NCBI GenBank assembly: GCA_963720265.1
Contig: CAVRET010000002.1
Coordinates: forward strand, 520,704-584,703
DNA from: an uncultured bacterium
GTDB lineage: Bacteria > Patescibacteriota > Saccharimonadia > UBA4664
Length of the DNA: 64,000 nucleotides
Reading direction: 5' to 3'
The notes below the pieces were generated by a model. It did no database searches. It saw only the letters and a list, made by a program, of their open reading frames with translations, and was not told the DNA's origin. Below are positions 4,358 to 39,666 of the stretch, piece after piece. The stretch's first letter is position 1, and each line of letters begins with the position of its first letter. The translations under genes were made by a program, and so were the position numbers.

Positions 4358-4810
4358 ATGCCGAGAAAAACCAAGCGTAAACAAAGCTTTGGCGACCGCA
4401 TACTCCGTATCGGACATATGAACCTGGCGATAGCGGCGGTGTTTGTATTAGCGTTCGCTGGGGTCGGCACGTGGTTCGTAGCCAGATCCGAAGCCGCCGG
4501 CAGCTGCGTCCTTTACAAATTATATGAATACCGCCCCGGTTTTTATGGCAGCCAGTGCGTGAAGGATGTTCAATATGAACTTAGTCACCTTAGCTATCTG
4601 GGTTATGGAAATCTAGCCATTGATGGAATTTATGGTCCCCAAACTGAAGCCGCGGTCTCAAGATTCGGGTATGACAATGGCATTAATAACAGCGGTCAAG
4701 TTGGAAGTCGGACATGGGCAATCCTCTGCGCCGCCGGTTGGGAATTTCCTTCGGTCAGTAGCAATGAAGGCTGCGGCTATTGGCCGGCATATTCGTACGG
4801 AAACTTATAA
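4358..4810 (+). CDS. membrane-anchored protein with peptidoglycan-binding (PG_binding_1-like) domain
   Basis: N-terminal TM helix. LGYGNLAIDGIYGPQTEAAVSRFGYDNG matches the PGBD helix-pair motif. Confidence 0.55.
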   Translation: MPRKTKRKQSFGDRILRIGHMNLAIAAVFVLAFAGVGTWFVARSEAAGSCVLYKLYEYRPGFYGSQCVKDVQYELSHLSYLGYGNLAIDGIYGPQTEAAVSRFGYDNGINNSGQVGSRTWAILCAAGWEFPSVSSNEGCGYWPAYSYGNL

Positions 4811-5058
4811 TGCTAAATACTCTCATCCAACCCCTCTTGTTCCCGCCGCATCTGGGATTTCCAGCCCTTACTGGTCTAATTGCCGGCCTGCTACTCATTC
4901 TCGTGTTCGAAGTTTGGATGCTCGTGGACGTACTCACCAATAAAAAAATACCGACACAGCACAAAGTCTGGTGGGTCATCTGCATGTTCCTTATTCACCC
5001 GGTTACGGCCATTGTTTACTTCTTTGTTCGCTCGGCTTACAAGAAATCCAAGCGGTGA
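4780..5058 (+). CDS. small membrane protein, PLDc_N (phospholipase-D-nuclease N-terminal)-like
   Basis: Two TM helices. The HKVWWVICMFLIHPVTAIVYFFV motif is typical of the PLDc_N small-protein family. Confidence 0.5.
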   Translation: MAGIFVRKLIMLNTLIQPLLFPPHLGFPALTGLIAGLLLILVFEVWMLVDVLTNKKIPTQHKVWWVICMFLIHPVTAIVYFFVRSAYKKSKR

Positions 5059-5789
5059 GCGCGGGCGAGCCCGCGGTTGAAATAAAGCGGCTGGCCGTCG
5101 TGTTAAGCGGCGGCTTTGTCGCGCTCCAAGATATTTCAATGGAGCTCCCGACCGGAAGGATAATTGGTTTTATTGGGCCGTCCGGCGCCGGCAAAACCAC
5201 GCTCATCCGGGCCATCGTTGGGCGGCAGCATATTGCCAAGGGTACGCTCAAAGTGCTAGGTCTGCCGGCTGGGAGCCGAGCATTGCGTTCCAAATTGAGC
5301 TACATGACCCAGAATCTCTCAGTGTACCCCGACCTCACGGCGGCGCAGAACCTTGAATATTTTGCCATCATGATCGGCCTCTCGCGCCATGAACTGGGAG
5401 AAGTCGTAGGCGAGGCACTGCATACGGTTGACCTCATGCCACAAGCCCACCAACTGGCCGCCAGCCTGTCCGGCGGCCAAAAACAACGGCTGTCGCTCGC
5501 CATTGCCCTGCTCGGCCAACCCGAACTGCTCGTGCTCGATGAGCCCACTGTGGGCCTCGACCCAGTGTTGCGCGACTCAATTTGGGCGCTCTTCCGGCGC
5601 CTGCGAGACGCCGGCGCCACGCTCATCGTCTCAAGTCACGTCATGGACGAAGCTGCCCGGTGCGACGACCTCGTACTCATCCGCGACGGACGGCTGCTGG
5701 CTCACGACACTCCGGCCACACTCAAGCACTCGACCCACGCCACCACCGTCGAGCAAGCCTTTCTCAGACTGGTCGAGGAGGCCGCATGA
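5055..5789 (+). CDS. ABC transporter ATP-binding protein
   Basis: Walker A GPSGAGKTT, signature LSGGQKQR, Walker B LLVLDEPT. A GTG start at 5055 overlapping the upstream stop is more plausible than the track's 4971 start. Confidence 0.85.
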   Translation: MSAGEPAVEIKRLAVVLSGGFVALQDISMELPTGRIIGFIGPSGAGKTTLIRAIVGRQHIAKGTLKVLGLPAGSRALRSKLSYMTQNLSVYPDLTAAQNLEYFAIMIGLSRHELGEVVGEALHTVDLMPQAHQLAASLSGGQKQRLSLAIALLGQPELLVLDEPTVGLDPVLRDSIWALFRRLRDAGATLIVSSHVMDEAARCDDLVLIRDGRLLAHDTPATLKHSTHATTVEQAFLRLVEEAA

Positions 5790-6520
5790 GCCCGCGCAAC
5801 ACCCTCTTTACTGCCCGACGCGTACTGCAGCAGCTCTCGCACGACCATCGCACGCTGGCCCTTATATTGCTCGTGCCAAGCGTGCTGCTCATTATTTTCA
5901 AATACACCTTTGACCACGAGTCCGCCGTCTTCGATCAATTCGCCCCCATGATTTTAGGCATCTTCCCGCTTGTGATAATGTTTATTGTCACTTCCATCGC
6001 CACCCTGCGCGAACGCACTATCGGCACGCTCGACCGCTTGCTCACCATGCCCATTGCCAAGCTCGACTTCTTGCTCGGCTATGCGCTGGCCTTTGCCGTC
6101 CTGGCCTTGGCGCAAGCCGGTCTGGCTAGCGCTGTGCTGCTCGGCCTGCTAGGCGTCACGGTAGCCGGCGGCACGGCTCCGGTGCTCATCTGCGCCATGC
6201 TGGCCGGGCTTCTTGGCATGTCGCTAGGATTGTTTATGAGCGCCTTTGCCAAAAGCGAATTCCAGGCTGTGCAATTTATGCCGGCCGTTATCCTTCCGCA
6301 GCTACTTACCTGCGGCCTGTTTGTAGCCCGCGATCAAATGGCGAAACCCTTGCAGTGGTTCGCCAATGTTATGCCGCTCACCTACAGCGTCGATGCTCTC
6401 AAGCAAGTTACAATGAGTACCACCTGGACGCACACACTCACCCGCGACCTCACGGTTGTGGCAGCCTACACCGTGGCTGCACTCGTGCTTGGTGCGCTCA
6501 CGATTCGCCGCCGGGATTAA
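5786..6520 (+). CDS. ABC-2 type transporter permease
   Basis: Six predicted TM segments. ATGA overlap with the ATPase gene. The track's 5582 start (Arg-rich) lies inside the ATPase gene and is rejected. Confidence 0.8.
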   Translation: MSPRNTLFTARRVLQQLSHDHRTLALILLVPSVLLIIFKYTFDHESAVFDQFAPMILGIFPLVIMFIVTSIATLRERTIGTLDRLLTMPIAKLDFLLGYALAFAVLALAQAGLASAVLLGLLGVTVAGGTAPVLICAMLAGLLGMSLGLFMSAFAKSEFQAVQFMPAVILPQLLTCGLFVARDQMAKPLQWFANVMPLTYSVDALKQVTMSTTWTHTLTRDLTVVAAYTVAALVLGALTIRRRD

Positions 6521-6565
6521 CAAAATTGACAGCATAAGCGCTTTTGGCCGATCATAATACATGTC

Positions 6566-9094
6566 ATGACACGCCACTACCTTGAACCCTCGTCCGATCA
6601 TGTCGACCACCAGAGCACGGACCGGCTGATGCCTGCTGGCCCGCCACCGCTGCATCCCTCGCCCGAACCCGAGCTACTGCAACGCAGGGCCCGTTTTCGC
6701 GAACCCGCAGCCCTGTTTGGGGTGCTGGTCGTAGCCGTTTGTCTCAGCCTGTTCCTCCGCCACACGCATGCCGCTACTGCCACCAACATTGCCATTAGCG
6801 GCACCAGCACTGGTCAGACCTTCTATGGTGTGGGCGCCATTAGCGGCGGAGGTGGCAACTCACGTTATCTCAATGATTACCCGGCCGCTGAGCAGAACCA
6901 GATCATGAATTATCTATTCAAGCCTGATTACGGCGCCAACCTCCAAATCCTCAAAGTCGAAATTGGTGGCGACACCAACTCCACCGACGGCGCTGAATCC
7001 AGCATTGAGCACACTGATGGCACCATTAATTGCAACGCCGGCTACGAATGGCCGATCATGCAGCAGGCCAAGGCCCTCAACCCCAACCTCAAGCTCTACG
7101 GCCTGGCCTGGGGCGCGCCCGGCTGGATCAGCGGCCACACCTTTAATTCGCAAGACACCATCACCTATCTCGTGAGTTGGCTCAACTGCGCCAAGCAGCA
7201 CAATCTCACCATCAATTACCTCGGCGGCCAAAACGAAAAACCCTACTCCGACACTTGGTACGAGAACTTGCGTACGGCCCTCAATAACGCCGGTTTCACC
7301 GGCACCCAGATCGTGGCCGCCGACCAAGCCTCCGGCCCATCAACGTGGAACATAGCAAGCGATATTGCAGCTAGCCCCCAACTTAAGAGTGCTGTCGGCA
7401 TCGTCGGCACACACGACGTTTGCGATTACCCCACCGACGGCCTTCAGTGCACCAGTACCGCCACAGCCCAGAGCCTCGGCTTGCCACTGTGGATCTCAGA
7501 AGCCGGCCACATGAACGCCAACACCGGCGCCGCCGACTACGCCCGTACCATCAACCGCGGCTACCAAGATGCCAAGCTCACCGGCTATATTACCTGGCCC
7601 ATCATGGACGCCATGCCGCCGGGCTTAAGTCACGAAATGTTTGGCCTCGTTACTGCCGACGAGCCCTGGAGCGGCTACTACACTGCCAATCCGATCATCT
7701 GGGGCATTGCCCACACCACCCAGTTCACAGCGCCCGGCTGGCAATACGTTGATTCCGCCACGGGCTACTTCGGCGGCGACCGCACGAACGGCAGCTACGT
7801 CACGTACAAATCGCCCAACCAGGCCGATTGGACCATGGTGGCTGAAACCACTACTGCCACCAGCTCGCAAAGCTTCAGCGCCACGATTTCCGGCGGCCTA
7901 AGCACCGGCGCCGTCCATGTCTGGGCGAGCAATGTGAATTCCGCTAGCCCATCAAGCTGGTTCCAGCAACAAGCCGATATTATCCCTAACAACGGCCTCT
8001 TCAGCTATACCCTCCAGCCCGGCTACATCTACACCTTCACCACCACAACCGGCCAAAGCAAGGGCAGCGCCGGCACGGTGCCGACCGCCGGCACGCTCAA
8101 GCTCCCATACTCCGACACCTTTAGTACTATGGACAGCTCAAATGAGGCCACCTACTTCGCCACCATGCAAGGCGCCTTCGAAGGTCAGCCCTGCAAAGGC
8201 GGCGTTGCAGGGCTTTGTCTGCAGCAAATGACGCCGGTTGACCCAATCGAATGGGGCTCAGGCCCGGTCAATCCGTATACGCTCATCGGCGATAACAGTT
8301 GGGCCAATTACACTGTGCAATCAAGCGTGCTCTTCACCGCCGCCGGCAGTTCGGCCGGCGTCATCGGTCGCTTCGAAGACCAGGCCGGCGATGCTGCCAA
8401 CTTCAACGGCTACCTCTTCCAGGCCACCGATTCCGGCGCCTGGACCCTGTACAAAAATACCAACGCCGGCACTCACACCGCGCTCGCCTCAGGCACAGTC
8501 GCGGCCCTTGGCACAAACAAGTGGCATACGCTCTCACTGAAAATGCAGGGCTCGGCCCTGACGGCCGCAATCGATGGAAAAACCGTTGGCTCTGCCGCCG
8601 ACAGCTCATTCGCCTTCGGCCCCGCCGGCCTCGACACCGGCGCCTTCACAAATACCTGGCCAATTGTCCAATTCCGCAATTTCTCCGCCACCGGCACCAA
8701 TGCCGTAGGCTTCACCGGTCCGGTTTTCTCCGGCGTCATCGACAAATGCCTCGACGACTACCAGGGCAGCTCGGCCAACAATAACAAAATCGACCTCTAT
8801 TCCTGCAACTACTCCGGCGCCCAATACTTCAATGTTCCGGGCGACGGCACTATCCGCATTGCCGGCAAGTGCCTCGATATCTACCAACAGGGCAAATCCA
8901 ATGGCACTCCGGTCGAACTCTTCACCTGCAATGGCGGCACCAATCAGCAGTGGCAAGCCACGAACGGCACACTCGTCAATCCGGTATCCGGCAAATGTCT
9001 CGACGATCCCAGCTCCACCTCCAGCAACGGCACGCAGCTCGACATCAGCACCTGCGACGGCTCGCCCGGCCAGTATTGGACCCTCCCGCAATAA
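6566..9094 (+). CDS. secreted glycoside hydrolase family 59 (galactocerebrosidase-like) with C-terminal ricin-B lectin (CBM13) repeats
   Basis: Signal-anchor, then YGVGAISGGGGNSRYLNDYP...LKVEIGGDTNSTDG...GYEW...NPNLKLYGLAWGAPGW...ADEPWSGYYTANPIIWGIAHTTQFTAPGW, all of which parallel conserved GALC/GH59 blocks. A GALC-like beta-sandwich lectin domain follows. The tail carries three CLD/QxW repeats (KCLDDYQG...YSCNYSGAQYF; KCLDIYQQ...FTCNGGTNQQWQ; KCLDDPS...STCDGSPGQYWT). Confidence 0.8.
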   Translation: MTRHYLEPSSDHVDHQSTDRLMPAGPPPLHPSPEPELLQRRARFREPAALFGVLVVAVCLSLFLRHTHAATATNIAISGTSTGQTFYGVGAISGGGGNSRYLNDYPAAEQNQIMNYLFKPDYGANLQILKVEIGGDTNSTDGAESSIEHTDGTINCNAGYEWPIMQQAKALNPNLKLYGLAWGAPGWISGHTFNSQDTITYLVSWLNCAKQHNLTINYLGGQNEKPYSDTWYENLRTALNNAGFTGTQIVAADQASGPSTWNIASDIAASPQLKSAVGIVGTHDVCDYPTDGLQCTSTATAQSLGLPLWISEAGHMNANTGAADYARTINRGYQDAKLTGYITWPIMDAMPPGLSHEMFGLVTADEPWSGYYTANPIIWGIAHTTQFTAPGWQYVDSATGYFGGDRTNGSYVTYKSPNQADWTMVAETTTATSSQSFSATISGGLSTGAVHVWASNVNSASPSSWFQQQADIIPNNGLFSYTLQPGYIYTFTTTTGQSKGSAGTVPTAGTLKLPYSDTFSTMDSSNEATYFATMQGAFEGQPCKGGVAGLCLQQMTPVDPIEWGSGPVNPYTLIGDNSWANYTVQSSVLFTAAGSSAGVIGRFEDQAGDAANFNGYLFQATDSGAWTLYKNTNAGTHTALASGTVAALGTNKWHTLSLKMQGSALTAAIDGKTVGSAADSSFAFGPAGLDTGAFTNTWPIVQFRNFSATGTNAVGFTGPVFSGVIDKCLDDYQGSSANNNKIDLYSCNYSGAQYFNVPGDGTIRIAGKCLDIYQQGKSNGTPVELFTCNGGTNQQWQATNGTLVNPVSGKCLDDPSSTSSNGTQLDISTCDGSPGQYWTLPQ

Positions 9095-9191: not shown

Positions 9192-9530
9192 ATGCCTTAC
9201 GCAAATAGGAAAAAAGCCCGAGCAGCAATCCGGAAGCACTATCTCGAGAATATTGATTATTACGTTCAAAAATCAGCAGCTAAGCGAGAGCGCCTAAAAC
9301 ATATTGTGCAAAGTATCAAGGCAGCATCACCGTGCGCAGATTGCCGGCACAACTTTCCGTATTATGTAATGGATTTTGATCATATTGGTGCCAAACTCAT
9401 GAATGTGAGTAAAATGATTAAAAAGGGCAGCATAAAACCCGTCCTCGAGGAAATTGCCAAGTGTGAGGTCGTGTGTGCAAACTGTCATCGAGTACGCACA
9501 TTTATGCGCCTGAGAACTTCACCCAAGTAG
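9192..9530 (+). CDS. HNH endonuclease family protein
   Basis: Cys-rich with CADCRH...CANCHR HNH/zinc-finger motif, ~112 aa. The track's longer 8832 ORF overlaps the GH59 gene and is rejected. Confidence 0.6.
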   Translation: MPYANRKKARAAIRKHYLENIDYYVQKSAAKRERLKHIVQSIKAASPCADCRHNFPYYVMDFDHIGAKLMNVSKMIKKGSIKPVLEEIAKCEVVCANCHRVRTFMRLRTSPK

Positions 9531-10067: not shown

Positions 10068-10144
10068 GGGCCATTAGCTCAGTTGGTTAGAGCAGCTGCC
10101 TCTTAAGCAGCGTGTCCTGGGTTCGAGTCCCAGATGGCCCTCCA
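10068..10144 (+). tRNA. tRNA-Lys (anticodon CTT)
   Basis: Acceptor GGGCCAT/ATGGCCC, anticodon loop CTCTTAA, T-loop TTCGAGT, encoded CCA. Its 3' end GATGGCCCTCCA is reiterated in every array repeat. Confidence 0.85.
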
Positions 10145-10190
10145 TAGCACTTATGCTTAAACGACCGAAAGGTCGTTTTTGATATGATTA
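10133..10190 (+). repeat. array repeat R0 (native tRNA-Lys 3' end plus 3' flank: conserved box, hairpin/T-run, TGaTATGAT)
   Basis: GATGGCCCTCCA-TAGCACTTATGCTTAAA-ACGACCGAAAGGTCGTTTTT-GATATGATTA. Confidence 0.8.
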
Positions 10191-10194
10191 ACCC

Positions 10195-10716
10195 ATGCCA
10201 CTCATATACGTTACTGGCATTGCTGGTTCAGGAAAGTCTGCGGCCCAAAAAGAACTCCAGAGACGAGGGTATGAGGCCCATGATGTCGACGAGCCGGGAA
10301 TTGGCGCAGCCTATAATCTACAAACTGGTGAGATTGTTAGTATCCCTGACGCAGCAGAGCGGTCGCCGGAATGGTTTGAGGCACACACCTGGAAGATGGA
10401 CCTTGAGGCTGTTAAGGAACTCAAAGCTCGGTCGCTTCATGGCGTTATATATTTATGTGGGCGAGCGGGCAATGAAAGCGAAGCCTGGCGATTATTTGAC
10501 AAGGTTGTCTACCTCGATATAAATGACGACACACTGCGTTGGCGTCTTGCCGTGAGGGAGGACAATGACTTTGGCAAGACAGAACATGAACTCCAGCAGA
10601 TTCTTAAAAGAAATAAGCGAGCCCGCGAGGAGTTTGAGCCACTTGGCGCTGTATTTATTGATGCTTCAGAGTCACTAGATAAAGTTGTTGGTGAGATTGT
10701 GAAACAATCACAGTAG
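10195..10716 (+). CDS. P-loop NTPase / small-molecule or nucleotide kinase-like protein (cassette 1)
   Basis: Walker A GIAGSGKSAAQ at the N-terminus, 173 aa. Stop TAG 10714-10716 lies inside repeat R1 (caGTAGcaa). Confidence 0.6.
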   Translation: MPLIYVTGIAGSGKSAAQKELQRRGYEAHDVDEPGIGAAYNLQTGEIVSIPDAAERSPEWFEAHTWKMDLEAVKELKARSLHGVIYLCGRAGNESEAWRLFDKVVYLDINDDTLRWRLAVREDNDFGKTEHELQQILKRNKRAREEFEPLGAVFIDASESLDKVVGEIVKQSQ

Positions 10717-10780
10717 CAACGGTCGTCACTACGGCCATCCATAGCACTTATGCTTAAAAAGAAACCGCAAGGTTTCTTTT
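10711..10780 (+). repeat. array repeat R1
   Basis: CAGTAGCAACGGTCGTCACTACGGCCATCCATAGCACTTATGCTTAAA + hairpin GAAACCGCAAGGTTTC + TTTT. Confidence 0.8.
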
Positions 10781-10990
10781 GTGTTAGCTAGAATAGTTCA
10801 AATGAGCAAGTTACTCTCAGGTCAAACACTCGCGACGATTACTGTCATTTCAGTGCTCCTTGTTCTCTGTGCATTTACTTGGCCCGCAATCAATAAAGCC
10901 AGGGCCACTTCCCATCTCAAACGGGTATTCAGCCAAGAGGCTAGCCCGCTAATCCCGGAAGTAACCGCCCTATGGAGGGGTGCATTCTAG
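10781..10990 (+). CDS. small membrane protein, possibly the N-terminal fragment of a frameshifted cassette gene (cassette 2)
   Basis: TM helix ATITVISVLLVLCAF. Its frame matches the TAG embedded in repeat R2, but the frame closes at 10990. Confidence 0.3.
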   Translation: MLARIVQMSKLLSGQTLATITVISVLLVLCAFTWPAINKARATSHLKRVFSQEASPLIPEVTALWRGAF

Positions 10991-11440
10991 CAATAGATTG
11001 GAATGTGACGAGGTAGCGCACACCCGTACCAAATCACAACTCTACTGCAAGGATACGCAGGCGTTCAAATACAACCCGGTACCCCTTCCCGATTCATCAC
11101 GGTCTGAAATAGTTACTGAAGCTACACGCCTCGACAAGGCACTCGTTCAAAACGGTTGGGCAGTGGATAGGGCCCAAGATACAACCAAGACCATCGCGGC
11201 CAGTATACCGACGGCTCCTGTTGCAGCCTTTCACGGGGGTGGTGTGCCATTCCACAAAAACATTGGGGATATAAGCTGCAATCTTGAGGTTAGGTTCAGC
11301 GGACCTACGGACGGAGTCTCACCCGGTGTGATAACCATAAATCGATCTCGTGCCAACAAAATATTGCGTATTTTATGCTTCATGCATCGAACTATACAAA
11401 TCACGGATTTGGTGGTCAAAGCCTCGTACTTTAGTTGCTA
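10980..11440 (+). pseudogene. hypothetical ORF continuing cassette 2 in another frame (possible frameshifted gene)
   Basis: ~150-codon open frame with no stop before R2. It reads straight through the repeat into the next gene, which produces the artifactual 381-aa track ORF. Confidence 0.25.
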
Positions 11441-11508
11441 CAGCCTGTACGATGGCCCTCCAAAGAGCTTATGCTTAAAAACGACCACCAGTTCGTTTTG
11501 TTATCATG
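11431..11508 (+). repeat. array repeat R2
   Basis: TTAGTTGCTACAGCCTGTACGATGGCCCTCCAAAGAGCTTATGCTTAAAA + hairpin ACGACCACCAGTTCGTTTT + GTTATCATGG. Confidence 0.8.
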
Positions 11509-11513
11509 GGAGC

Positions 11514-12125
11514 ATGAAGCCATATATACTTGGTTTGTGCGGCGGATCGGGTTCAGGAAAATCTACACTAGCATTTGGGTTGGCCGATATGCATCCAGGT
11601 GAAGTTACAGTATTCCACTTAGATGATTACTTCCGGCCCAGAGAAGAAGTTCTCACACTACATGGTTTCGTCAATTATGATGACCCCAGAGCCCTAAACA
11701 GTGACAAGATGATAGCTGACTTAGCCACGCTTATTAGCGGCAAGCCGGTTACTATTAACACAAAAAGCCCTAGACTGAATCCCGATTATGTCAAAACCAG
11801 GCAGCGGGTACCGGTCCGATTTGAGCCAAATAAGTTAATTGTGGTTGAAGGCTTCTTGACCTTGTATTTTGAGGAACTCAGAAAGCACTTTGATTATTCG
11901 ATTTACTTGGATGCCCCTTTTGATGACAGCACAGGCAGGCGCGCAGGCGAAAAGATAAACAATTACTCCCCTGAATATTTCAAGCTCGTGCTAAAGCCAA
12001 TGAGCGAAAGATACGTATATCCAAATAAAAAATATGCTAGTCGCGTTGTGAATATTGAAGGCAAATCAAAGCAATACGTTCTGAATGAAGTTGAAGAAAT
12101 CTTAAACAGCCAGAGTGTCTTTTAA
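11514..12125 (+). CDS. uridine kinase / phosphoribulokinase-family P-loop kinase (cassette 3)
   Basis: LGLCGGSGSGKSTLA P-loop, DDYF, and a IVVEGFLTLYF...YLDAP layout typical of Udk/PRK. ATG 11514 lies just after R2. Confidence 0.7.
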   Translation: MKPYILGLCGGSGSGKSTLAFGLADMHPGEVTVFHLDDYFRPREEVLTLHGFVNYDDPRALNSDKMIADLATLISGKPVTINTKSPRLNPDYVKTRQRVPVRFEPNKLIVVEGFLTLYFEELRKHFDYSIYLDAPFDDSTGRRAGEKINNYSPEYFKLVLKPMSERYVYPNKKYASRVVNIEGKSKQYVLNEVEEILNSQSVF

Positions 12126-12147
12126 CTCCTGAACTTCGGTTCTAACA

Positions 12148-12215
12148 GAATGAACGATGGCCCTCCATAGCACTTATAATTAAATAACAGCTCTACAGAG
12201 CTGTTATTTAATTAT
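12148..12215 (+). repeat. array repeat R3 (variant downstream half)
   Basis: ACGATGGCCCTCCATAGCACTTATAATTAAATAACAGCTCTACAGAGCTGTTATTTAATTATTGG. The hairpin is AAATAACAGCTCT/AGAGCTGTTATTT. Confidence 0.7.
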
Positions 12216-12238
12216 TGGAACTCTGATAAAATACTTGC

Positions 12239-13015
12239 ATGTATATTTCGGTCGACATCGGCGGCACCAACATTCGCATCGCTGCAACCTCGAGCTTAGA
12301 AATCCCTCGATTCGAGCCTGCACCGATCCGAGCAAAAAGTACGCGCAATTACGAGCGTGACCTCAGTTTCATCATCGACGGCGCCCGCAGACTGGCCGGC
12401 AGCAAGCCGATCAGAGCAGTCGGCATCGGCATGCCCGGCAGTTTTAACGATCAAAAAACCGAGCTCGTTTCAACCAGATATACCAAGCACTGGGTTGGCC
12501 ATCCGTTTGTGGCCACGCTAAGTAATGAGCTAAACTGCCCAGTCTTTATCGAAAATGATGGCGTCGCTGCCGGCCTTGGCGAAGCCTACTACGGCAACCA
12601 CCCGAAGCAATTTTGCTATGTAGTTTGGGGCACCGGCATCGGCGGCGCGTCAATAGTGACGAATGCGGACAAAACCCAAGTTGAGGTCGCAAAGTTCGAC
12701 CACAAAACGCACTTCAAAGCCTGGGAAGACGACTGCGGCGGTCACGAACTGGAGGAGCATTATCACAAAACGCCGGCTGACCTCAGTGCCGAACAATGGC
12801 AAAAGGTGATGGGGAAGTTCGAGACTCATCTCCACATGTTCATTGAGCTTACCGGCACGAGAGCAGTGGTCTTTGGCGGCGGCATCGCCATTAGGAAGCG
12901 GCAAGAGCTTGAGGCCATGGCAACAGCTCAAACAAGTGTAACCGCCTCAAATTTTAACGAGGACAGTGGGGTATATGGCGGCCTCGGTGTAATTCGGGCT
13001 AACGTTCACTTATGA
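12239..13015 (+). CDS. ROK-family sugar kinase / transcriptional-regulator-like (BadF/BadG/BcrA/BcrD ATPase fold) (cassette 4a)
   Basis: N-terminal MYISVDIGGTNIRIA phosphate-1 motif, GIGMPG, and GTGIGG motifs of ROK/glucokinase. Confidence 0.65.
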   Translation: MYISVDIGGTNIRIAATSSLEIPRFEPAPIRAKSTRNYERDLSFIIDGARRLAGSKPIRAVGIGMPGSFNDQKTELVSTRYTKHWVGHPFVATLSNELNCPVFIENDGVAAGLGEAYYGNHPKQFCYVVWGTGIGGASIVTNADKTQVEVAKFDHKTHFKAWEDDCGGHELEEHYHKTPADLSAEQWQKVMGKFETHLHMFIELTGTRAVVFGGGIAIRKRQELEAMATAQTSVTASNFNEDSGVYGGLGVIRANVHL

Positions 13016-13620
13016 TAAACACAATGACAAAATATGTACTCAACTCAGGTGGCATCAAACACCAGCCCGAACTTAAGAAGAAGTTTCACCAGGAGCTCAT
13101 TAAAGGCTTGAGCTCCAATCCAAAATTCGTACTCTGCAATTTCGCCCAAGGCCGCGAGTATTGGGAAGTGAAATTCCAGGGCTACTCTGACACGATCACG
13201 GAAGATATGCCGGCCAACATAAAGCCCACATATGAATTAGCGCTACCAACTACGTTTACTGAGCAATGCAAAAATACTGATGTCATCTACTTCCACGGCG
13301 GTGATGACCACTTACTGCAGTTTTGGCTGAAGCAATTTGACCTAACCGAGCTATTTAAAAACAAAGTTGTCGCCACTAACTCGGCGAGCTCCGACATGCT
13401 TGCCACCCACCATTGGACATGCGATTGGCGCGCTTGCGCCGACGGACTCGCCGTACTGCCGATCAAATTCATTCCCCATTATTTATCCAATTTTGGCGAT
13501 AGCGATCCGCGCGGCCCAATAGATTGGCAAAAGGCTTATGACGAGCTAGCAGCGTACGGCGATACGTCGTTACCGATTTACGCCCTCAAAGAAGGTGAGT
13601 TTATCGTCAAGGAGCAGTAA
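13012..13620 (+). CDS. peptidase S51 (PepE)-like / class-I glutamine amidotransferase-like protein (cassette 4b)
   Basis: VIYFHGGDDHLLQFW...VVATNSASSDMLA resembles the PepE IYxxGGN...GxSAG block. ATGA overlap with the ROK gene. Confidence 0.4.
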   Translation: MINTMTKYVLNSGGIKHQPELKKKFHQELIKGLSSNPKFVLCNFAQGREYWEVKFQGYSDTITEDMPANIKPTYELALPTTFTEQCKNTDVIYFHGGDDHLLQFWLKQFDLTELFKNKVVATNSASSDMLATHHWTCDWRACADGLAVLPIKFIPHYLSNFGDSDPRGPIDWQKAYDELAAYGDTSLPIYALKEGEFIVKEQ

Positions 13621-13676
13621 TGCCTATACTTCAGCCCCGATCCGCGCAATATGTAGGTCCTGAGATCGCCTTACCT

Positions 13677-13750
13677 CAGTAGCAATAGCTTCTACGATGG
13701 CCCTCCATAGCACTTATGCTTAAAACGACTAACAAAGTCGTTTTTGTTAC
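13677..13750 (+). repeat. array repeat R4 (consensus form)
   Basis: CAGTAGCAATAGCTTCTACGATGGCCCTCCATAGCACTTATGCTTAAAACGACTAACAAAGTCGTTTTTGTTAC. Confidence 0.85.
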
Positions 13751-13783
13751 AGTAATACTTAGAACAGTATTTTATATATAACT

Positions 13784-14233
13784 TTGAGGCATATTATGGC
13801 CCACGCCGAAAGCAGCGCAGACATCAATCGAACACCCCGGGCAGTGTATGATTTTCTGGTCGATGGGCTCAATAATTCAAAATGGCGCAGTGCAGTTGTT
13901 GAAATTAGCCTAAAACACGGGTCTGTCGGTCAAGTTGGGACGGAGTATCGCCAAGTTCTCAAGGGCCCAGGCAGTCGCACCATTCATGGCGATTACCACC
14001 TGACTGCCGCCGAATCTCCATCCCGGATCGCGTTTGAAGTGACTGCGGGACCCGCCAGGCCCAGGGGCGAGTACCGGCTTGTGGCCTCTGGGGATGGTAC
14101 GAAAGTCACCTTTATTCTCGACCTTAAAACCTCTGGCTTGATGAAACTTATGGAACCAATGATTCGCCAAACCATGCAGTCAGAAGTATCAAACTTAGCT
14201 CAACTCAAGGCCATCTTAGAGCTTAGTAAATAG
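13784..14233 (+). CDS. SRPBCC (START/Bet v1/polyketide-cyclase-like) family protein (cassette 5)
   Basis: ~145 aa. A RTPRAVYDFLVDGLNNSKWRSAV N-terminus is typical of the SRPBCC ligand-binding fold. Alternative start at 13796. Confidence 0.55.
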   Translation: MRHIMAHAESSADINRTPRAVYDFLVDGLNNSKWRSAVVEISLKHGSVGQVGTEYRQVLKGPGSRTIHGDYHLTAAESPSRIAFEVTAGPARPRGEYRLVASGDGTKVTFILDLKTSGLMKLMEPMIRQTMQSEVSNLAQLKAILELSK

Positions 14234-14306
14234 CTACTGGTGGTAAAAAAGCAGTATATAAACTTTACAATGCCATGACATGAACCGTCTGCAACTGTCG
14301 TATTAT

Positions 14307-14380
14307 GGTTGCAATAGCTTCCACGATGGCCCTCCATAGCACTGATGCTTAAACGACCGACAGGTCATTTTTGTTATGAT
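14307..14380 (+). repeat. array repeat R5
   Basis: GGTTGCAATAGCTTCCACGATGGCCCTCCATAGCACTGATGCTTAAACGACCGACAGGTCATTTTTGTTATGATTGCC. Confidence 0.8.
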
Positions 14381-14386
14381 TGCCAC

Positions 14387-14794
14387 ATGCACAAAGAAGA
14401 ATTCGTCGAAGCCGTTAAAAAACTTGGCCTCAAGCCGAATGATTATATTGTTGTTGGCTCCGGTGTGTTGGTGGCTCTGGGTATCCGTACGGCCACTGAC
14501 GTTGACCTCATAGTCAGTGAGCCGATTTTTCATCAATTTGAAGAAACAGGTGAGTGGCAGCGCAAAGATTTCGATGATGGGACGCATTATCTGCTTAAAG
14601 GTAAGTATGAAATTGGCCTCGACTGGGATGGCGAGAATACTACGCCGAACCTTAAAGATTTGAAGAAGTCGGAGGTTGTAATTGATAATATTCCGTTTGT
14701 TAGTCTCGAACGCCTCCGCCACTGGAAGGCTTGGAAGAATACGCCAAAGCACCTCGCAGACATTCGTTTGATAGACGACTACCTAAGCAGGTAA
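14387..14794 (+). CDS. minimal nucleotidyltransferase (Pol-beta superfamily) domain protein (cassette 6)
   Basis: Carries the two halves of the nucleotidyltransferase signature: hG[GS] (VVGSGVLVALGIR) and DxD (TATDVDLIV). 135 aa. Confidence 0.5.
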   Translation: MHKEEFVEAVKKLGLKPNDYIVVGSGVLVALGIRTATDVDLIVSEPIFHQFEETGEWQRKDFDDGTHYLLKGKYEIGLDWDGENTTPNLKDLKKSEVVIDNIPFVSLERLRHWKAWKNTPKHLADIRLIDDYLSR

Positions 14795-14828
14795 AGCTAG
14801 CTCAACAATCAAAGGCCTTTGAGCCAAG

Positions 14829-14910
14829 ACAGTAGTTGCTACAGCCTGTACGATGGCCCTCCAGCAATAATCATTAAATAACGGCTTCACAGAGCCGTTA
14901 TTTCGTTATT
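14829..14910 (+). repeat. array repeat R6 (variant downstream half)
   Basis: CAGTAGTTGCTACAGCCTGTACGATGGCCCTCCAGCAATAATCATTAAATAACGGCTTCACAGAGCCGTTATTTCGTTATTCG. Confidence 0.75.
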
Positions 14911-15199
14911 CGTTCTTAGCCCTAACGACATGTTAGAGCTAGCTAGGTTAATGGTTATTTGAAATTACATAAGATATATGTTATAAGTGTATGTAGGCTC
15001 AACTATCCAGAGGAGTGCATGGTGCCTATTCACTCGATTGTCTTGGCTGTGAATAATCCACCCCGAGACGAGGTGGAGAGTGTCGTCAAAATGATGGCGG
15101 GCGGTGGATGGAGATCTGTGTGGTGCGCAGACCGCGCATCACTTGACCAGTTGCTGCCTCCTCCGGAGCGCCGCATTGGCTATGTGGTCGTGGGACTGT

Positions 15200-15800
15200 C
15201 TGGCTCACTCAGTGAACCACCTCGGGCTAAAGCCCGAGGCTTCCTTGGGGCGGCATGCTGGGTTTAGCTTTCCATTGATTTTCGATATACCGTTTAATCG
15301 CCTGCTCCGTGTTACGACCAACACTCTCGGCGAAGTAGCCATCCGCCCAGAAGCTATCTCCCCATAACCATTCTTCCAGTTCAGGATGCGTCTGGCGGAT
15401 AGCCCGACTTGATCCGCCCTTGAAGATTTGTACTACCTGTGACACCGAGATGCTGGGAGGTAGTTCAATAAGCATATGAATGTGGTCGGGCATCACTGCC
15501 AGCCGCTCAATCCACCAGTCGTTCATCTCTGCGCACTGAAAGAATAATCGCTTCAGGTCAGTGGCGACTTCGCCCCGCAGGATGCTTTTGCGGTACTTGG
15601 GTATCCAGACGATATGAAATTGCAGGCGATATAGCGTATGCGCACCGGAATAATATTTTTTACCTGACTTCACATACCCAGCATGCCAGACTGTCGGCGC
15701 CAGCGCCAAGGTTGACCGCCATCCGACTTAGCCTTGGTGCTACCGCCTTAAGCGGACCCATTCATCCCTGGCCTAAAGGCCCAGGGGTCTCTGGGAGGTT
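15200..15800 (-). mobile_element. IS200/IS605-family insertion sequence (tnpA only)
   Basis: Y1 HUH transposase gene flanked by two subterminal hairpins with identical loops: CCTCGGGCTAAAGCCCGAGG (15219-15239) and CCCTGGCCTAAAGGCCCAGGG (15766-15786). Boundaries are approximate. Confidence 0.7.
15227..15709 (-). CDS. tnpA: IS200/IS605 family transposase TnpA (Y1 HUH)
   Basis: HIVWIPKYRK and the HUH motif PDHIHMLIE, with the catalytic Tyr region YIENQWK. ~150 aa. Confidence 0.85.
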   Translation of the reverse strand: MALAPTVWHAGYVKSGKKYYSGAHTLYRLQFHIVWIPKYRKSILRGEVATDLKRLFFQCAEMNDWWIERLAVMPDHIHMLIELPPSISVSQVVQIFKGGSSRAIRQTHPELEEWLWGDSFWADGYFAESVGRNTEQAIKRYIENQWKAKPSMPPQGSLGL

Positions 15801-16043
15801 ACTAGAGAGGACATCGCCCCTCATATTCCAAGCGACCTACGTGACGTTGCCGCGTTTGGCCCTGGAGCGAGAAGTTTCGGAATGGTCGTCTAGCTACGAT
15901 TTTTCCGCAGATGAGAGCACTATGGTCAAAGTAATGGCTAACGACCTCGATGCCCTCTCCCGCGAGGCTCTACTCAGCCGACTCCTGAGCCCCCGAATTC
16001 ACAAATGCGCAGACCGATCGGGGTCTGCGCTCTTTCTTTCACT

Positions 16044-16130
16044 GCAGTAGCAATAGCTTCTACGATGGCCCTCCAGAGCTCTTATGCTTAAAATGACTTC
16101 CGCAAGGGAGTCATTTTGGTATCATTATCA
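16044..16130 (+). repeat. array repeat R7
   Basis: TGCAGTAGCAATAGCTTCTACGATGGCCCTCCAGAGCTCTTATGCTTAAAATGACTTCCGCAAGGGAGTCATTTTGGTATCATTATC. Confidence 0.85.
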
Positions 16131-16132
16131 AG

Positions 16133-16675
16133 ATGAATGAATTCCAAACCACCCAGCTAAATGAAATTCTGGCCCGCGACCGAGAATTGGCAAAAAAGTT
16201 CGCTGAACTTAAGGAAGTTTTTGCTCAAAAATTTGGTGAAGATAGCGACATGTACGAAAGGGCGACCGCCATCTTCCTAGCTAACGCCCTCAACGGTGCT
16301 GCAGACTATGGAATTCCGCCCCTATATTCTGTGTATTGGAAACCATATCAAACCCAGAACCTCTTGCATCACATCACTACCAAGAAAAACGTCGACTCCA
16401 TTCGCAGGCATGGTCTGGAACCACGTGACCCTTCTCCTCGTCCATGGGCCGGCATGAAGGCGGTCTATATGGCCGAACCAAATGACCCGCTTTACGATAA
16501 ATCCGAACAAGCGGTCTTGGGTCATGTGCGTAAAAAAGGCGAAAACCCTGTGTTACTACAAATCAAAACCAATAACAAACTCTACAAGTCAATTGAACCA
16601 GGCCGAACCTTCCAAGTGATTTCGGTTGACCACATCGGACCTGAGGAAATCGTTGACTACCAAGGTCCAGGCTAA
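16133..16675 (+). CDS. hypothetical protein (cassette 8)
   Basis: 180-aa ORF starting right after R7. No recognisable domain. Confidence 0.45.
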   Translation: MNEFQTTQLNEILARDRELAKKFAELKEVFAQKFGEDSDMYERATAIFLANALNGAADYGIPPLYSVYWKPYQTQNLLHHITTKKNVDSIRRHGLEPRDPSPRPWAGMKAVYMAEPNDPLYDKSEQAVLGHVRKKGENPVLLQIKTNNKLYKSIEPGRTFQVISVDHIGPEEIVDYQGPG

Positions 16676-16708
16676 TATCGTTACGTACGGCTCTTCAGCC
16701 TGACGCAG

Positions 16709-16792
16709 ACTAGTTGCGATAGCGTATACGATGGCCCTCCGTAGTACTTATGCTTTAAGACTCCATCGGGAGTCTTTTTGCTTTGCTATGAT
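16709..16792 (+). repeat. array repeat R8
   Basis: CTAGTTGCGATAGCGTATACGATGGCCCTCCGTAGTACTTATGCTTTAAGACTCCATCGGGAGTCTTTTTGCTTTGCTATGATG. Confidence 0.8.
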
Positions 16793-16794
16793 GA

Positions 16795-17448
16795 ATGCAT
16801 ATGAGCAGTCTCTCCGAATATGAGGCAAAACCCTGGCCCTATACGGTAATTGTGGGCATCATTATTTACGTTGCAATTGATATTCTCTTGGCTTTTCTAA
16901 GGCCCGATTACAGTAGCCTGCATAACGCTGAAAGCGATTATGGCAGAGGTCCCTACTCTTGGGTTATGGACATTAATTTTTTGCTACGCTGTGTGTTATC
17001 GCTAGCTTTAGTAAAAGCTATCTGGACCACCTTCCCTAAAGAAAAGCCCATTAAGAAAGCTTCTTATTGGCTCATTGCATGGGCGATTTCTTCAGGGCTG
17101 CTGGCATTCTTCGCTGACAATCCCTTCGGCTATCCCAAGCTTAAGAGTGGTTCAATACACCTACTGTTGGCTTTTGTAGTATTTATCAGTGCTTTAGTAG
17201 GAATGGTTTTGCTAACTAGACGCTTTATGATTGTCCAGGCTTGGCGCGATACCGCTGGTTTACTGGTAGGCATAACGATACTCGCAATAGTATCCCTAGT
17301 ACTAATGGGTTACGTAGGGATTAGGCCACACACATTAGGCGGCTTATATGAAAGATTTTTTCTAGGCTCGGTACTTCTATGGGAAGGGGTTGTTGCTATA
17401 AAAATTATTTCAGGTAACAATACGTCCTCTTCAGCTAGTCGCAAATAG
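16795..17448 (+). CDS. polytopic membrane protein, unknown function (cassette 9)
   Basis: ~6 predicted TM helices, 217 aa. Confidence 0.45.
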   Translation: MHMSSLSEYEAKPWPYTVIVGIIIYVAIDILLAFLRPDYSSLHNAESDYGRGPYSWVMDINFLLRCVLSLALVKAIWTTFPKEKPIKKASYWLIAWAISSGLLAFFADNPFGYPKLKSGSIHLLLAFVVFISALVGMVLLTRRFMIVQAWRDTAGLLVGITILAIVSLVLMGYVGIRPHTLGGLYERFFLGSVLLWEGVVAIKIISGNNTSSSASRK

Positions 17449-17478
17449 CAAAAAACAATCCAATTACTACCTTGTATT

Positions 17479-17512
17479 ACAGTGCGATAGCGTGCACGAT
17501 GGCACTCACACT
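17479..17512 (+). repeat. array repeat R9 (upstream half only, degenerate)
   Basis: CAGTGCGATAGCGTGCACGATGGCACTCACAC. It lacks the conserved box and hairpin. Confidence 0.5.
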
Positions 17513-17868: not shown

Positions 17869-18142
17869 CCCAAGGCATACTGTCGAGCCCATCACTGGCT
17901 GCAGCGTCCCACGATGTCAAGTCGGTATCATCGGCCAAGGCATGGGGGTTAGACGCTAAAACTGCTTGAATTTGCTGCCTCCACCCTTGTCTTGGATTAG
18001 CCGCAGAACGAATCACTATCTCGCCTGGTCGAGCCTCCAATTCAACCGCGTCTTCCAGATTGCTCAAAGCAAGCAACGCCTTTGGCAGCCGCACTGCTTT
18101 ACTATTACCGGACGTAGTTAATCTCGTAGATATCGTTGACAT
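17825..18142 (-). CDS. mazE: type II antitoxin (AbrB/MazE-type swapped-hairpin domain)
   Basis: TTSGNSKAVRLPKALL matches the SpoVT/AbrB motif. Sits upstream of and overlaps the toxin gene. Confidence 0.6.
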   Translation of the reverse strand: MSTISTRLTTSGNSKAVRLPKALLALSNLEDAVELEARPGEIVIRSAANPRQGWRQQIQAVLASNPHALADDTDLTSWDAAASDGLDSMPWDGPTYEEWLARDKH

Positions 18143-39660: not shown

Positions 39661-39666
39661 CCGGGG

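What the first reader, a model, noticed from the sequence alone, without database searches (positions are those of the whole stretch)
6566..9094. Secreted GH59 galactocerebrosidase-like hydrolase fused to three ricin-B (CBM13) lectin repeats
The catalytic region parallels animal GALC block by block: GxxSGGGxxSRxLxxYP, LKVEIGGD..TDG, GYEW, NPNxxLxGLxWxxPGW, EPWSGxYxxxxPxWxxAHTTQFTxPGW. It also includes the GALC-type beta-sandwich lectin domain. It is followed by a beta-trefoil with three QxW repeats. GH59 enzymes are rare in bacteria. In an organism that probably lives attached to or scavenging from other cells, a secreted beta-galactosyl-lipid/glycan hydrolase with an extra lectin module is a plausible host-surface or polysaccharide-foraging tool. 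It sits immediately upstream of the tRNA cluster and array.
Basis: partly seen in the sequence, partly recalled or inferred. Interest (0 to 1): 0.55.

Follow-up and report, generated by a model that had tools for sequence, protein, structure and literature searches.

The report
Secreted GH59 glycosidase with ricin-type lectin
This is an intact gene for an exported sugar-cleaving enzyme of the galactocerebrosidase family (GH59) with a ricin-type carbohydrate-binding tail, carried by a tiny-genome soil Saccharimonadia bacterium; the annotation is sound but the enzyme type is common in soil actinobacteria, so it is only modestly unusual.

Summary
The 842-aa ORF at 6566..9094(+) is real. It is a four-domain GH59 enzyme: TIM barrel, beta-sandwich, GALC-type lectin domain and a C-terminal CBM13/ricin-B trefoil. 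Pfam GH59 scores E 2.8e-100. Mouse GALC aligns end to end (E 3e-78). The AlphaFold model superposes on GALC (TM 0.89), and GH30 scores far worse. Both catalytic glutamates (E224, E312) and most galactose-pocket residues are conserved. An N-terminal hydrophobic segment with a T-H-A|A site indicates export. The host is a Saccharimonadia (CPR) genome on a 1.1-Mb contig.

- GH59 is not rare in bacteria. There are thousands of homologues, and the same architecture is routine in acid-soil Actinomycetota.
- Only two trefoil repeats carry QxW; the first has QYF.
- The protein belongs to an "HD" GH59 subfamily (Y238D, S261H, W180Q relative to GALC) and lacks the R380 loop, so it is unlikely to be a true galactocerebrosidase.

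Its nine-member clade is under purifying selection and matches the genome in base composition. The most likely role is extracellular exo-beta-galactoside hydrolysis for glycan foraging. It is a new member of a known kind and of modest interest.

The parts
6526..6555 (+). Promoter-like site (TTGACA, 18 nt, GATCAT) in the 45-nt gap between the ABC-2 permease stop and the GH59 ATG
   Evidence: Consensus scan, 10 of 12 matches. The count in the region is not above the shuffled expectation, so this is weak evidence.
6566..9094 (+). Whole ORF, 842 aa plus stop. Public annotation starts at Met22 (6629), giving 821 aa.
   Evidence: P0001 is 100% identical, 821 aa, on a 1,108,292-bp contig.
6566..6772 (+). 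N-terminal export region: a long, poorly conserved, charged n-region (RRARFRE), a 17-residue hydrophobic core at aa 48-64 (6707-6757), and a T-H-A|A-T-A-T-N putative signal-peptidase I site after aa 69
   Evidence: Kyte-Doolittle 19-residue mean up to 2.26. The same H(S/T)xA|AT site sits at the same alignment position as the classical AxA|A signal-peptide ends of the actinobacterial homologues. pLDDT is below 50 here. Cleavage is inferred; no signal-peptide predictor was available.
6821..7723 (+). GH59 catalytic (beta/alpha)8 barrel. Acid/base E224 (7235-7237) in GGQNEK; nucleophile E312 (7499-7501) in WISEAGH. Pocket residues G95, T140, W182, N223 and W344.
   Evidence: Pfam PF02057, E 2.8e-100. 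Residue mapping to mouse GALC E182/E258 and the other pocket residues.
7907..8056 (+). GH59 central beta-sandwich domain (Pfam match covers part of it; structurally about aa 400-545). It lacks the 14-residue GALC loop that carries R380.
   Evidence: PF17387, E 9.5e-8. Gap in the alignments. Strands in the AF2 model.
8210..8686 (+). GALC-type C-terminal lectin (concanavalin-like) domain. W563 (8252-8254) corresponds to GALC W524, which shapes the active-site pocket.
   Evidence: PF21708, E 1.4e-15. W invariant in 121 sequences. Role of W524 from PMC4445328.
8738..9079 (+). CBM13 / ricin-B beta-trefoil with three subrepeats, each with a Cys pair (728/747, 769/788, 811/830) and a CLD motif. The motifs are QYF (alpha), QQW (beta) and QYW (gamma).
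   Evidence: PF00652, E 8.4e-25. Best solved relatives are Streptomyces CBM13 modules 3wmy, 1knl and 3a21. Subrepeat alignment.

Best explanation
The gene encodes an exported GH59 glycoside hydrolase with a retaining mechanism. It is either released or tethered to the outer face of the membrane. The GH59 core consists of a TIM barrel, a beta-sandwich and a lectin domain, which together form a pocket for one terminal sugar. A C-terminal CBM13 (ricin-B) trefoil holds the enzyme on galactose-containing or related polymers. E312 attacks the anomeric carbon and E224 acts as the general acid/base, releasing a terminal beta-linked galactose-type residue from glycans. Likely targets are plant or microbial galactans, or the surface glycopolymers of neighbouring or host cells. 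The freed sugar would feed a Saccharimonadia cell with a reduced, 1.1-Mb genome.

Shown: family membership, domain architecture, conservation of the catalytic pair and most -1 subsite residues, the export signal, purifying selection, and the host lineage.

Inferred: galactoside specificity, exo action, the natural substrate, signal-peptide cleavage, and an ancient origin by gene exchange with Actinomycetota.
For: Family and fold:
- Pfam hits to all four domains.
- Mouse GALC E 3.2e-78 over aa 79-707.
- AF2 model pLDDT 85.9, pTM 0.83.
- Foldseek: GALC 3zr5 E 1.9e-60, target TM 0.89, rmsd 2.7 A; GH30 about 5e-25 or weaker.

Active site:
- The equivalents of GALC G48, T93, W135, N181, E182, E258, W291 (the galactose C4 specificity determinant) and W524 are invariant in all 121 sequences.

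Export:
- Hydrophobic core plus a T-H-A|A site, aligned with the signal-peptide ends of homologues.
- 12 Cys in the mature part, including three CBM13-type pairs.
- A DsbA-like neighbour in relative L016.

Selection and composition:
- dN/dS about 0.10-0.16 in each of the four domains against the 80%-identical relative.
- Upstream synteny with that relative is conserved.
- GC3 0.739 against a window mean of 0.666 +/- 0.081.

Host:
- MurB's closest named relatives are Saccharimonadia/Saccharibacteria/Patescibacteria.
- The contig is 1.108 Mb.

CBM13:
- The nearest solved relatives are Streptomyces CBM13 modules attached to xylanase, arabinofuranosidase and arabinopyranosidase.
Against: - I found no biochemically characterised bacterial GH59 in the paper library, and no bacterial GH59 structure appeared among the PDB matches. 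Specificity is therefore extrapolated from animal GALC.
- This clade differs from GALC and from the ricin-bearing actinobacterial type at three positions near the active site: W180Q, Y238D and S261H. It also lacks the R380 loop. S261 and R380 hydrogen-bond galactose hydroxyls in GALC, so the sugar or linkage preference may differ.
- Model coordinates could not be inspected, so the positions of D284 and H315 relative to the pocket rest on sequence alignment only.
- The long n-region and 17-residue h-region could equally make an uncleaved membrane anchor.
- In the alpha and gamma trefoil sites the motif or aromatic positions are degenerate.
- No galactose-catabolism genes were identified next to the gene.
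Confidence: 0.6

Rival explanations
1. Same fold and mechanism, but a different specificity that defines the 'HD' GH59 subfamily. Candidates are 6-substituted or beta-1,6-linked galactose, D-fucose, L-arabinopyranose, galactosamine or galactofuranose. The pocket would be remodelled by Y238D, S261H and W180Q and by loss of the R380 loop.
For: The substitutions are fixed in all nine clade members. The motif H-D-x-C-x-Y-P-T-x-G with S-E-x-G-[AH]-M recurs in a broader subfamily that groups with the clade in 98 of 100 bootstraps. S261 and R380 contact sugar hydroxyls in GALC. About 15% of family representatives have Asp at the Y238 position, which suggests a functional subclass and not decay.
Against: W291, the determinant of galacto-configuration in GALC, together with T93, W135, N181 and W524, is invariant. 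The Tyr-to-Asp and Trp-to-Gln positions vary across the family generally, so they may tune activity without redefining specificity. There are no biochemical data for any member.
Confidence: 0.22
2. An epibiont weapon or harvesting tool. The enzyme is displayed on the Saccharimonadia cell surface and binds and trims galactose-containing wall glycopolymers or glycolipids of an actinobacterial host. The gene was originally captured from that host lineage.
For: Nearly all relatives outside the clade that carry an organism name are from acid-soil Actinomycetota. Cultured Saccharibacteria live on Actinomycetota (my own knowledge), and Saccharimonadia hosts inferred in sludge include Actinobacteria (PMC10031880). 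The N-terminal anchor-like segment and the lectin tail suit a surface-displayed enzyme. Relatives P0005, P0007 and P0008 add dockerin-like repeats. From memory, Kitasatospora and Streptacidiphilus have galactose-rich walls.
Against: There is no direct link to any host. The gene matches its genome in composition in three genomes, so any transfer is ancient, and its direction is inferred only from taxon breadth. The nearest single relative, P0242, is on a mid-GC (0.52) contig of unknown taxon. CBM13-tagged hydrolases in Streptomyces mostly target plant polymers.
Confidence: 0.12
3. A true galactosylceramidase-type glycolipid hydrolase that removes galactose from galactolipids, as animal GALC does.
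For: Full-length homology to GALC, including the lectin domain that shapes the aglycon side of the pocket. Some databases name the homologues 'galactosylceramidase'.
Against: Those names are transferred by homology. The R380 loop is deleted and S261 is replaced. GALC needs saposin A to reach its lipid substrate (the 5nxb complex is listed), and nothing equivalent is evident here. Galactosylceramide is not a known lipid of the likely neighbours (my own knowledge). The extra CBM13 points to polymeric glycans.
Confidence: 0.04
4. A catalytically dead lectin or adhesin that keeps the GH59 fold only for binding.
For: Loss of the clan GH-A beta6 tyrosine (Y238D) could weaken positioning of the nucleophile (its role is from my own knowledge). 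The protein has two lectin-type domains.
Against: Both catalytic Glu, N223 and the pocket tryptophans are invariant. The catalytic domain has the lowest dN/dS of all domains, 0.096. Asp at this position is common in the family alongside an intact catalytic pair.
Confidence: 0.02

Closest known systems
Mouse/human galactocerebrosidase GALC (GH59; PDB 3zr5, 4ccc)
   Same: The three-domain core (TIM barrel, beta-sandwich, lectin domain) is shared: about 31% identity, target TM 0.89, rmsd 2.7 A. The acid/base (NE) and nucleophile (SE) motifs are the same, and the G48, T93, W135, N181, W291 and W524 equivalents are conserved.
   Different: The window protein has no R380 loop. It carries Y238D, S261H and W180Q. 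It has an extra C-terminal CBM13 and a bacterial export signal in place of lysosomal targeting. A polymeric-glycan substrate is more likely than a sphingolipid.
Actinobacterial GH59-ricin proteins annotated 'ricin-type beta-trefoil lectin domain protein / galactosylceramidase' (Kitasatospora, Streptacidiphilus, Catenulispora, Pseudonocardiaceae, Streptosporangiaceae)
   Same: Identical four-domain architecture, 50-56% identity over the full length, a signal peptide ending at the same alignment position, and also no R380 loop.
   Different: They keep GGWNER, HYPC and SENGSQ (the 'HY' type). They come from high-GC genomes (0.67-0.69 against 0.57). They are not the phylogenetic sister of the window clade (2 of 100 bootstraps). 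None was found to be biochemically characterised.
'HD' GH59 subfamily, e.g. P0246 from Actinocrinis sp. (HEV2634967.1), P0242 and P0414-P0454
   Same: The shared motifs are H-D-x-C-x-Y-P-T-x-G and W-x-S-E-x-G-[AH]-M. They group with the window clade in 98 of 100 bootstraps.
   Different: Most are about 700 aa without the ricin domain. Most keep Trp before the NE motif, where the window has Gln. The exception P0244 (809 aa) has a ricin domain and sits on a 1.12-Mb contig.
Streptomyces CBM13 modules (Xyn10A 1knl; SaAraf43A 3wmy; beta-L-arabinopyranosidase 3a21)
   Same: The closest solved relatives of the C-terminal trefoil (E 5.8e-26 to 2e-18). They show the same three-fold repeat with CLD, Cys pairs and QxW.
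   Different: They are attached to other catalytic families. In the window protein the alpha repeat has QYF and the gamma repeat lacks the usual aromatic residue before the second Cys (ISTC).
Ruminiclostridium cellulolyticum Ccel_1238 (S-GH59-UNK-CBM6-DOC) of the xyl-doc cluster
   Same: A bacterial secreted GH59 fused to a carbohydrate-binding module and used in plant-polysaccharide degradation (PMC6556953).
   Different: It has CBM6 and a dockerin in place of CBM13, and it comes from a Firmicute cellulosome. Its activity is only putative. It was not compared by sequence here.

Membership tests
CAZy GH59 (Pfam PF02057 + PF17387 + PF21708) | Significant match to the GH59 catalytic-domain profile, stronger than to any sister family of clan GH-A | tested here: met
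   PF02057 scores 335.8 bits (cut-off 27), covering profile positions 1-294 of 294. GH30 scores 16.4 bits, below its cut-off of 23. dbCAN itself was not available.
CAZy GH59 (Pfam PF02057 + PF17387 + PF21708) | Three-domain fold: (beta/alpha)8 barrel, beta-sandwich and lectin domain, all contributing to the pocket | tested here: met
   AF2 model pLDDT 85.9. Foldseek to 3zr5_A gives E 1.9e-60 and target TM 0.89 over 669 columns. PF17387 and PF21708 are above their cut-offs. The W524 equivalent is conserved.
CAZy GH59 (Pfam PF02057 + PF17387 + PF21708) | Retaining catalytic pair: acid/base Glu in an N-E motif (GALC E182) and nucleophile Glu (GALC E258) | tested here: met
   E224 in GGQNEK and E312 in WISEAGH. 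Both are invariant in 121 sequences. The roles come from PMC4445328.
CAZy GH59 (Pfam PF02057 + PF17387 + PF21708) | Beta-galactosidase or galactosylceramidase activity | not testable with these tools
   This needs an enzyme assay. W291 and the other -1 subsite residues are conserved, but S261 and R380 are not.
Galactocerebrosidase sensu stricto (EC 3.2.1.46, GALC orthologue) | Complete GALC galactose-binding set, including S261 and the R380 loop of the beta-sandwich | tested here: not met
   The 14-residue loop carrying R380 is absent in all bacterial sequences aligned. The S261 position is His315.
Galactocerebrosidase sensu stricto (EC 3.2.1.46, GALC orthologue) | Clan GH-A beta6 His-Tyr pair (GALC H237-Y238) | tested here: not met
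   His283 is kept but Tyr is replaced by Asp284 (HDVC against HYPC/HYPG), anchored by the invariant Cys. The role of the Tyr is from my own knowledge.
CBM13 / ricin-B lectin (Pfam PF00652) | Profile match above threshold and a three-fold internal repeat of about 40 residues with a Cys pair in each | tested here: met
   PF00652 scores 87.8 bits (cut-off 29). Three repeats have Cys 728/747, 769/788 and 811/830. Streptomyces CBM13 structures are the best PDB matches.
CBM13 / ricin-B lectin (Pfam PF00652) | (Q/N)xW motif in each of the three subdomains | tested here: inconclusive
   The motifs are QYF at 753, QQW at 794 and QYW at 836. The alpha repeat has Phe in the window and its two closest relatives, but Trp in P0004-P0008.
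CBM13 / ricin-B lectin (Pfam PF00652) | Sugar binding (galactose, lactose, xylan and so on) in at least one subsite | not testable with these tools
   The CLD Asp is present in all three repeats. Only the beta repeat has the full Asp/aromatic/Asn-Q-x-W set as read by eye. Confirmation needs a glycan array or ITC.
Sec-exported protein with a cleavable type I signal peptide | Positively charged n-region, hydrophobic h-region, and small residues at -3 and -1 | tested here: inconclusive
   The n-region (RRARFRE), the h-region at aa 48-64 and T-H-A|A are present and aligned with the signal-peptide ends of homologues. However, the n-region is unusually long (about 25-47 aa), no predictor was available, and an uncleaved anchor is not excluded.

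The most novel reading that the evidence does not exclude
Soil Saccharimonadia, which are obligate epibionts with genomes of about 1 Mb, maintain several lineages of GH59 enzymes shared with acid-soil Actinomycetota. This ricin-tagged 'HD-type' enzyme would be a surface-displayed tool with a specificity not yet described for GH59. It would be used to bind and strip galactose-type residues from the wall glycopolymers of an actinobacterial host, with the gene originally exchanged between host and epibiont.
Probability: 0.12. Interest if true: 0.6.

Novelty: new member of a known kind. Interest (0 to 1): 0.3.

Why it matters
Bacterial GH59 is a sizeable family: 691 clusters at 50% identity, and thousands at 90%. 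Yet I found no characterised bacterial member in the paper library and no bacterial GH59 among the PDB matches, so every annotation leans on a mammalian lysosomal enzyme. A reduced-genome Saccharimonadia keeps a large, four-domain, exported GH59-CBM13 under purifying selection. This marks extracellular galactoside harvesting as part of its lifestyle. It also offers a compact candidate, together with the 'HD' subfamily signature, for defining what bacterial GH59 enzymes actually cleave. As a genome feature, though, it is a well-behaved CAZyme gene and not a new kind of system.

Tried and rejected
- GH30 assignment: rejected.
- Recent horizontal acquisition: rejected. GC and GC3 lie within the window's range, and gene GC equals locus GC in L012 and L013.
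- 'Nested inside Kitasatospora/Streptacidiphilus': the first tree, built from the top 120 full-length hits, suggested this in only 48 of 100 bootstraps and was unresolved. With wider sampling the clade instead joins the HD subfamily in 98 of 100.
- Y238 retained through a 4-residue shift (the HMMER alignment pairs Y288 with Y238): rejected. HY-type proteins carry both tyrosines (HYPCGY), and the Cys anchors the alignment.
- Pseudoenzyme: rejected on conservation and dN/dS.
- A second GH59 copy in the window: none found.
- Dead ends: P0001 was not retrievable with the look-up of encoding contigs. The source genome is not among the GTDB representatives. The two PNAS GALC structure papers are not held. 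The afdb50 fold library is unavailable. Model coordinates are not exposed, so I could not measure distances for D284 or H315. Literature searches for a characterised bacterial GH59, or for GH59 in Saccharibacteria, found nothing relevant.
Full report
**Observation.** The window has a single long ORF at 6566..9094 on the + strand, 842 aa. Pfam finds four domains, each above its curated cut-off:
- Glyco_hydro_59, aa 86-386: E 2.8e-100, full profile coverage.
- Glyco_hydro_59M, aa 448-497.
- Glyco_hydro_59_C, the GALC lectin domain, aa 549-707.
- Ricin_B_lectin, aa 725-838.

It scores 16.4 bits, below its threshold. NCBIfam gives only sub-threshold lectin and GH30-type hits. An AlphaFold2 model built on 120 homologues (pLDDT 85.9, pTM 0.83) superposes on mouse GALC with E 1.9e-60, target-normalised TM 0.89 and rmsd 2.7 A over about 669 columns. 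The best GH30 structures reach only about 5e-25.

**Host organism.**
- The identical protein (P0001, annotated from Met22, 821 aa) is on record on a 1,108,292-bp contig.
- The window's MurB has its closest named relatives in Candidatus Saccharimonadia, Saccharibacteria and Patescibacteria. The first non-CPR hit (Symbiobacterium) is at 46% identity.
- The GH59 relative P0012 (69% identity) is named Candidatus Saccharimonadales.
- The window also carries a cytochrome bo-type quinol oxidase, GT4 glycosyltransferases and a LytR-CpsA-Psr protein.

The source genome is not among the GTDB species representatives.

**Active site.** Residue roles come from the GALC azasugar paper (PMC4445328): E258 is the nucleophile and E182 the acid/base; N181, G48, T93, W135, S261 and R380 bind sugar hydroxyls; W291 confers galacto-specificity; W524 of the lectin domain shapes the pocket.
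- Mapping through the alignments gives window residues E312, E224, N223, G95, T140, W182, W344 and W563. All are invariant in 121 bacterial sequences.
- The 14-residue loop carrying R380 is missing in every bacterial sequence.
- The nine sequences closest to the window protein (P0001-P0008 and P0012, 64-100% identical) differ from GALC and from the 112 actinobacterial-type sequences at three positions next to the catalytic residues. GGWNER becomes GGQNEK (W180Q), HYPC becomes HDVC (Y238D), and SENGSQ becomes SEAGHM (S261H).
- These changes are not unique. Among 150 representatives of 50%-identity clusters, the Y238 position is Tyr in 103 and Asp in 23.
- A recognisable subfamily shares H-D-x-C-x-Y-P-T-x-G and W-x-S-E-x-G-[AH]-M.

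The protein is therefore a bona fide GH59 with intact catalytic machinery. It is not a GALC orthologue in pocket detail, and its specificity may be shifted.

**Export.**
- The N-terminus has a long, poorly conserved, charged stretch. It is followed by a 17-residue hydrophobic core (aa 48-64, hydropathy up to 2.26) and then R-H-T-H-A|A-T-A-T-N.
- The A|A junction lies at the same alignment position as the classical AxA|A signal-peptide ends of the actinobacterial homologues, nine residues before the GALC-homologous region.
- The mature part has 12 cysteines, including the three CBM13 pairs.
- One relative sits next to a DsbA-like gene.

Export is well supported. Cleavage as opposed to membrane anchoring is not resolved.

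**Ricin-B domain.** There are three subrepeats with CLD motifs and Cys pairs. The motifs are QYF, QQW and QYW, so the 'three QxW' claim is slightly off. By eye, only the beta repeat has the full canonical set of binding-type residues. The nearest solved relatives are Streptomyces CBM13 modules.

**How common it is.**
- A capped search returned 3,479 clusters at 90% identity with E<=1e-10. All but one (a partial, P0012) of the top 120 share the GH59 + lectin + ricin architecture, and the named ones come from Kitasatospora, Streptacidiphilus, Catenulispora, Actinocrinis, Actinacidiphila, Pseudonocardiaceae and Streptosporangiaceae.
- An exhaustive HMMER scan with the catalytic part found 691 clusters at 50% identity at E<=1e-30.
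- GH59 with bound CBMs is already noted in Ruminiclostridium (PMC6556953) and counted in Streptomyces genomes (PMC11475409).

'Rare in bacteria' is therefore not supported. What is lacking is biochemistry. I found no characterised bacterial GH59, and a 2025 paper still describes GH59 as 'a family of galactosylceramidases' (PMC11739564). No bacterial GH59 structure appeared in the PDB search.

**Evolution.**
- The nine-member clade is monophyletic in 100 of 100 bootstraps.
- With only the top full-length hits its position was unresolved.
- With wider sampling and an L-INS-i alignment it groups with the HD subfamily in 98 of 100 bootstraps. It is sister to all 23 sampled HD members in 72, and to P0242 plus P0416 in 22. 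It does not group with the ricin-bearing 'HY' actinobacterial type.
- These are neighbour-joining trees rooted on a distant outgroup, so they are indicative only.
- The HD subfamily includes a named Actinocrinis protein and many sequences with Ala/Arg-rich actinobacterial-style signal peptides.
- It also includes proteins from mid-GC loci: P0242 (GC 0.52) and P0244. P0244 is an 809-aa GH59 with a ricin domain on a 1.12-Mb contig, flanked by genes for 3,484- and 3,988-aa proteins.
- The Saccharimonadia contig that carries P0003 also has a second, 38%-identical GH59 without a ricin domain.

Soil Saccharimonadia thus hold at least two GH59 lineages, interleaved with those of Actinomycetota. Ancient inter-phylum exchange is likely, but its direction is inferred only from taxon breadth. 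The window gene shows no sign of recent transfer:
- GC is 0.595 and GC3 is 0.739, against a window mean of 0.666 +/- 0.081.
- Upstream synteny (PG-binding protein, small ORF, ABC ATPase, ABC-2 permease, GH59) is shared with the 80%-identical relative.
- dN/dS is about 0.10-0.16 in each of the four domains, with dS near saturation.

**Mechanism and role.**
- Most likely (0.6): an exported, retaining exo-beta-galactosidase-type GH59. Its CBM13 holds it on galactose-bearing polymers and it releases terminal sugar for uptake.
- Rival (0.22): the same chemistry with a shifted specificity that defines the HD subfamily.
- Rival (0.12): a surface tool aimed at actinobacterial host walls.
- Rival (0.04): a true glycolipid galactosylceramidase.
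- Rival (0.02): an inactive adhesin.

Nothing nearby links the gene to a sugar-utilisation locus. The ABC-2 exporter upstream is syntenic in the closest relative, an ABC ATPase with ABC-2 permeases also lies two genes upstream of the GH59 in L013 (P0005), and there is none in L012 or L016.

**Verdict.** The annotation is correct and solid. The significance argument based on rarity fails. This is a new member of a known kind, with a modest point of interest: an uncharacterised GH59 subfamily kept by a reduced-genome epibiont. Interest 0.3.

Noticed in passing
window 10131-18277 (+): An array of at least 10 direct repeats. The core is ACGATGGCCCTCCATAGCACTTATGCTTAAA, followed by a variable GC hairpin and a T-run. 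There are 9 copies within 3 mismatches (0 expected by chance), plus one more divergent copy at about 14828. Spacing is 0.5-1.5 kb, roughly one small accessory gene per spacer: AAA_18 kinase-like, uridine-kinase-like, ROK, SRPBCC, DUF998, MazF and YdeI. The first copy is the 3' acceptor end plus CCA of tRNA-Lys(ctt) and its downstream flank. The region is low in GC (0.47-0.50 against 0.56-0.60).
   Followed up: partly
window 15227-15709 (-) and 19265-19708 (+); repeats at 19173-19197 and 19714-19738: Two IS200-like Y1 transposase genes (Pfam Y1_Tnp, E 6.6e-41 and 6.5e-33) lie inside or next to the array. The second is bracketed by a 25-nt GC-rich palindromic repeat (AACCCCGGAGCTTGCTCCGGGGAGG).
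   Followed up: no
window 9192-9530 (+): A small ORF lies between the GH59 stop and tRNA-Arg(tcg). By eye it has an HNH-like Cys/His pattern (CADCRH...DFDH...CANCH), but it has no Pfam hit at E<=1e-3.
   Followed up: no
window 35851-40524 (+) and 40829-42166 (+): A cytochrome bo-type quinol oxidase operon (COX2 + COX_ARM, COX1 at E 3e-150, then three further ORFs that were not scanned) is followed by a Pyr_redox_2 flavoprotein that could be a type-II NADH dehydrogenase. This is an aerobic respiratory module in a 1.1-Mb Saccharimonadia genome.
   Followed up: no
L012 13391-15439 (-); L018 6001-8430 with flanking genes: Related Saccharimonadia-type contigs carry further GH59 lineages. One is a 682-aa ricin-less paralogue 3 kb from the P0003 gene, 38% identical. 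Another is an 809-aa GH59-ricin (P0244) on a 1.12-Mb contig between genes for 3,484-aa (CBM_4_9) and 3,988-aa proteins.
   Followed up: partly
L013 6813-9431 (P0005); also P0007 and P0008: Three clade members insert dockerin-like repeats (DLNxDGxVNxxDLSxLLSxWG; Pfam Dockerin_1, weak) between the signal sequence and the GH59 domain. This hints at scaffold or surface attachment in these small-genome bacteria.
   Followed up: no
window 4358-6520 (+); L015 731-3005: The block upstream of the GH59 gene is conserved with the 80%-identical relative: a PG_binding_1 protein, a small PLDc_N-like membrane ORF, an ABC ATPase and an ABC-2 permease. L015 also has DUF998 and PemK/MazF genes downstream, as in the window's array region.
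   Followed up: partly
window 46682-47419 (+): A second low-GC gene (GC 0.458, GC3 0.476) sits just upstream of a 7TM histidine kinase and response-regulator pair at 47454-50001. Its origin was not examined.
   Followed up: no
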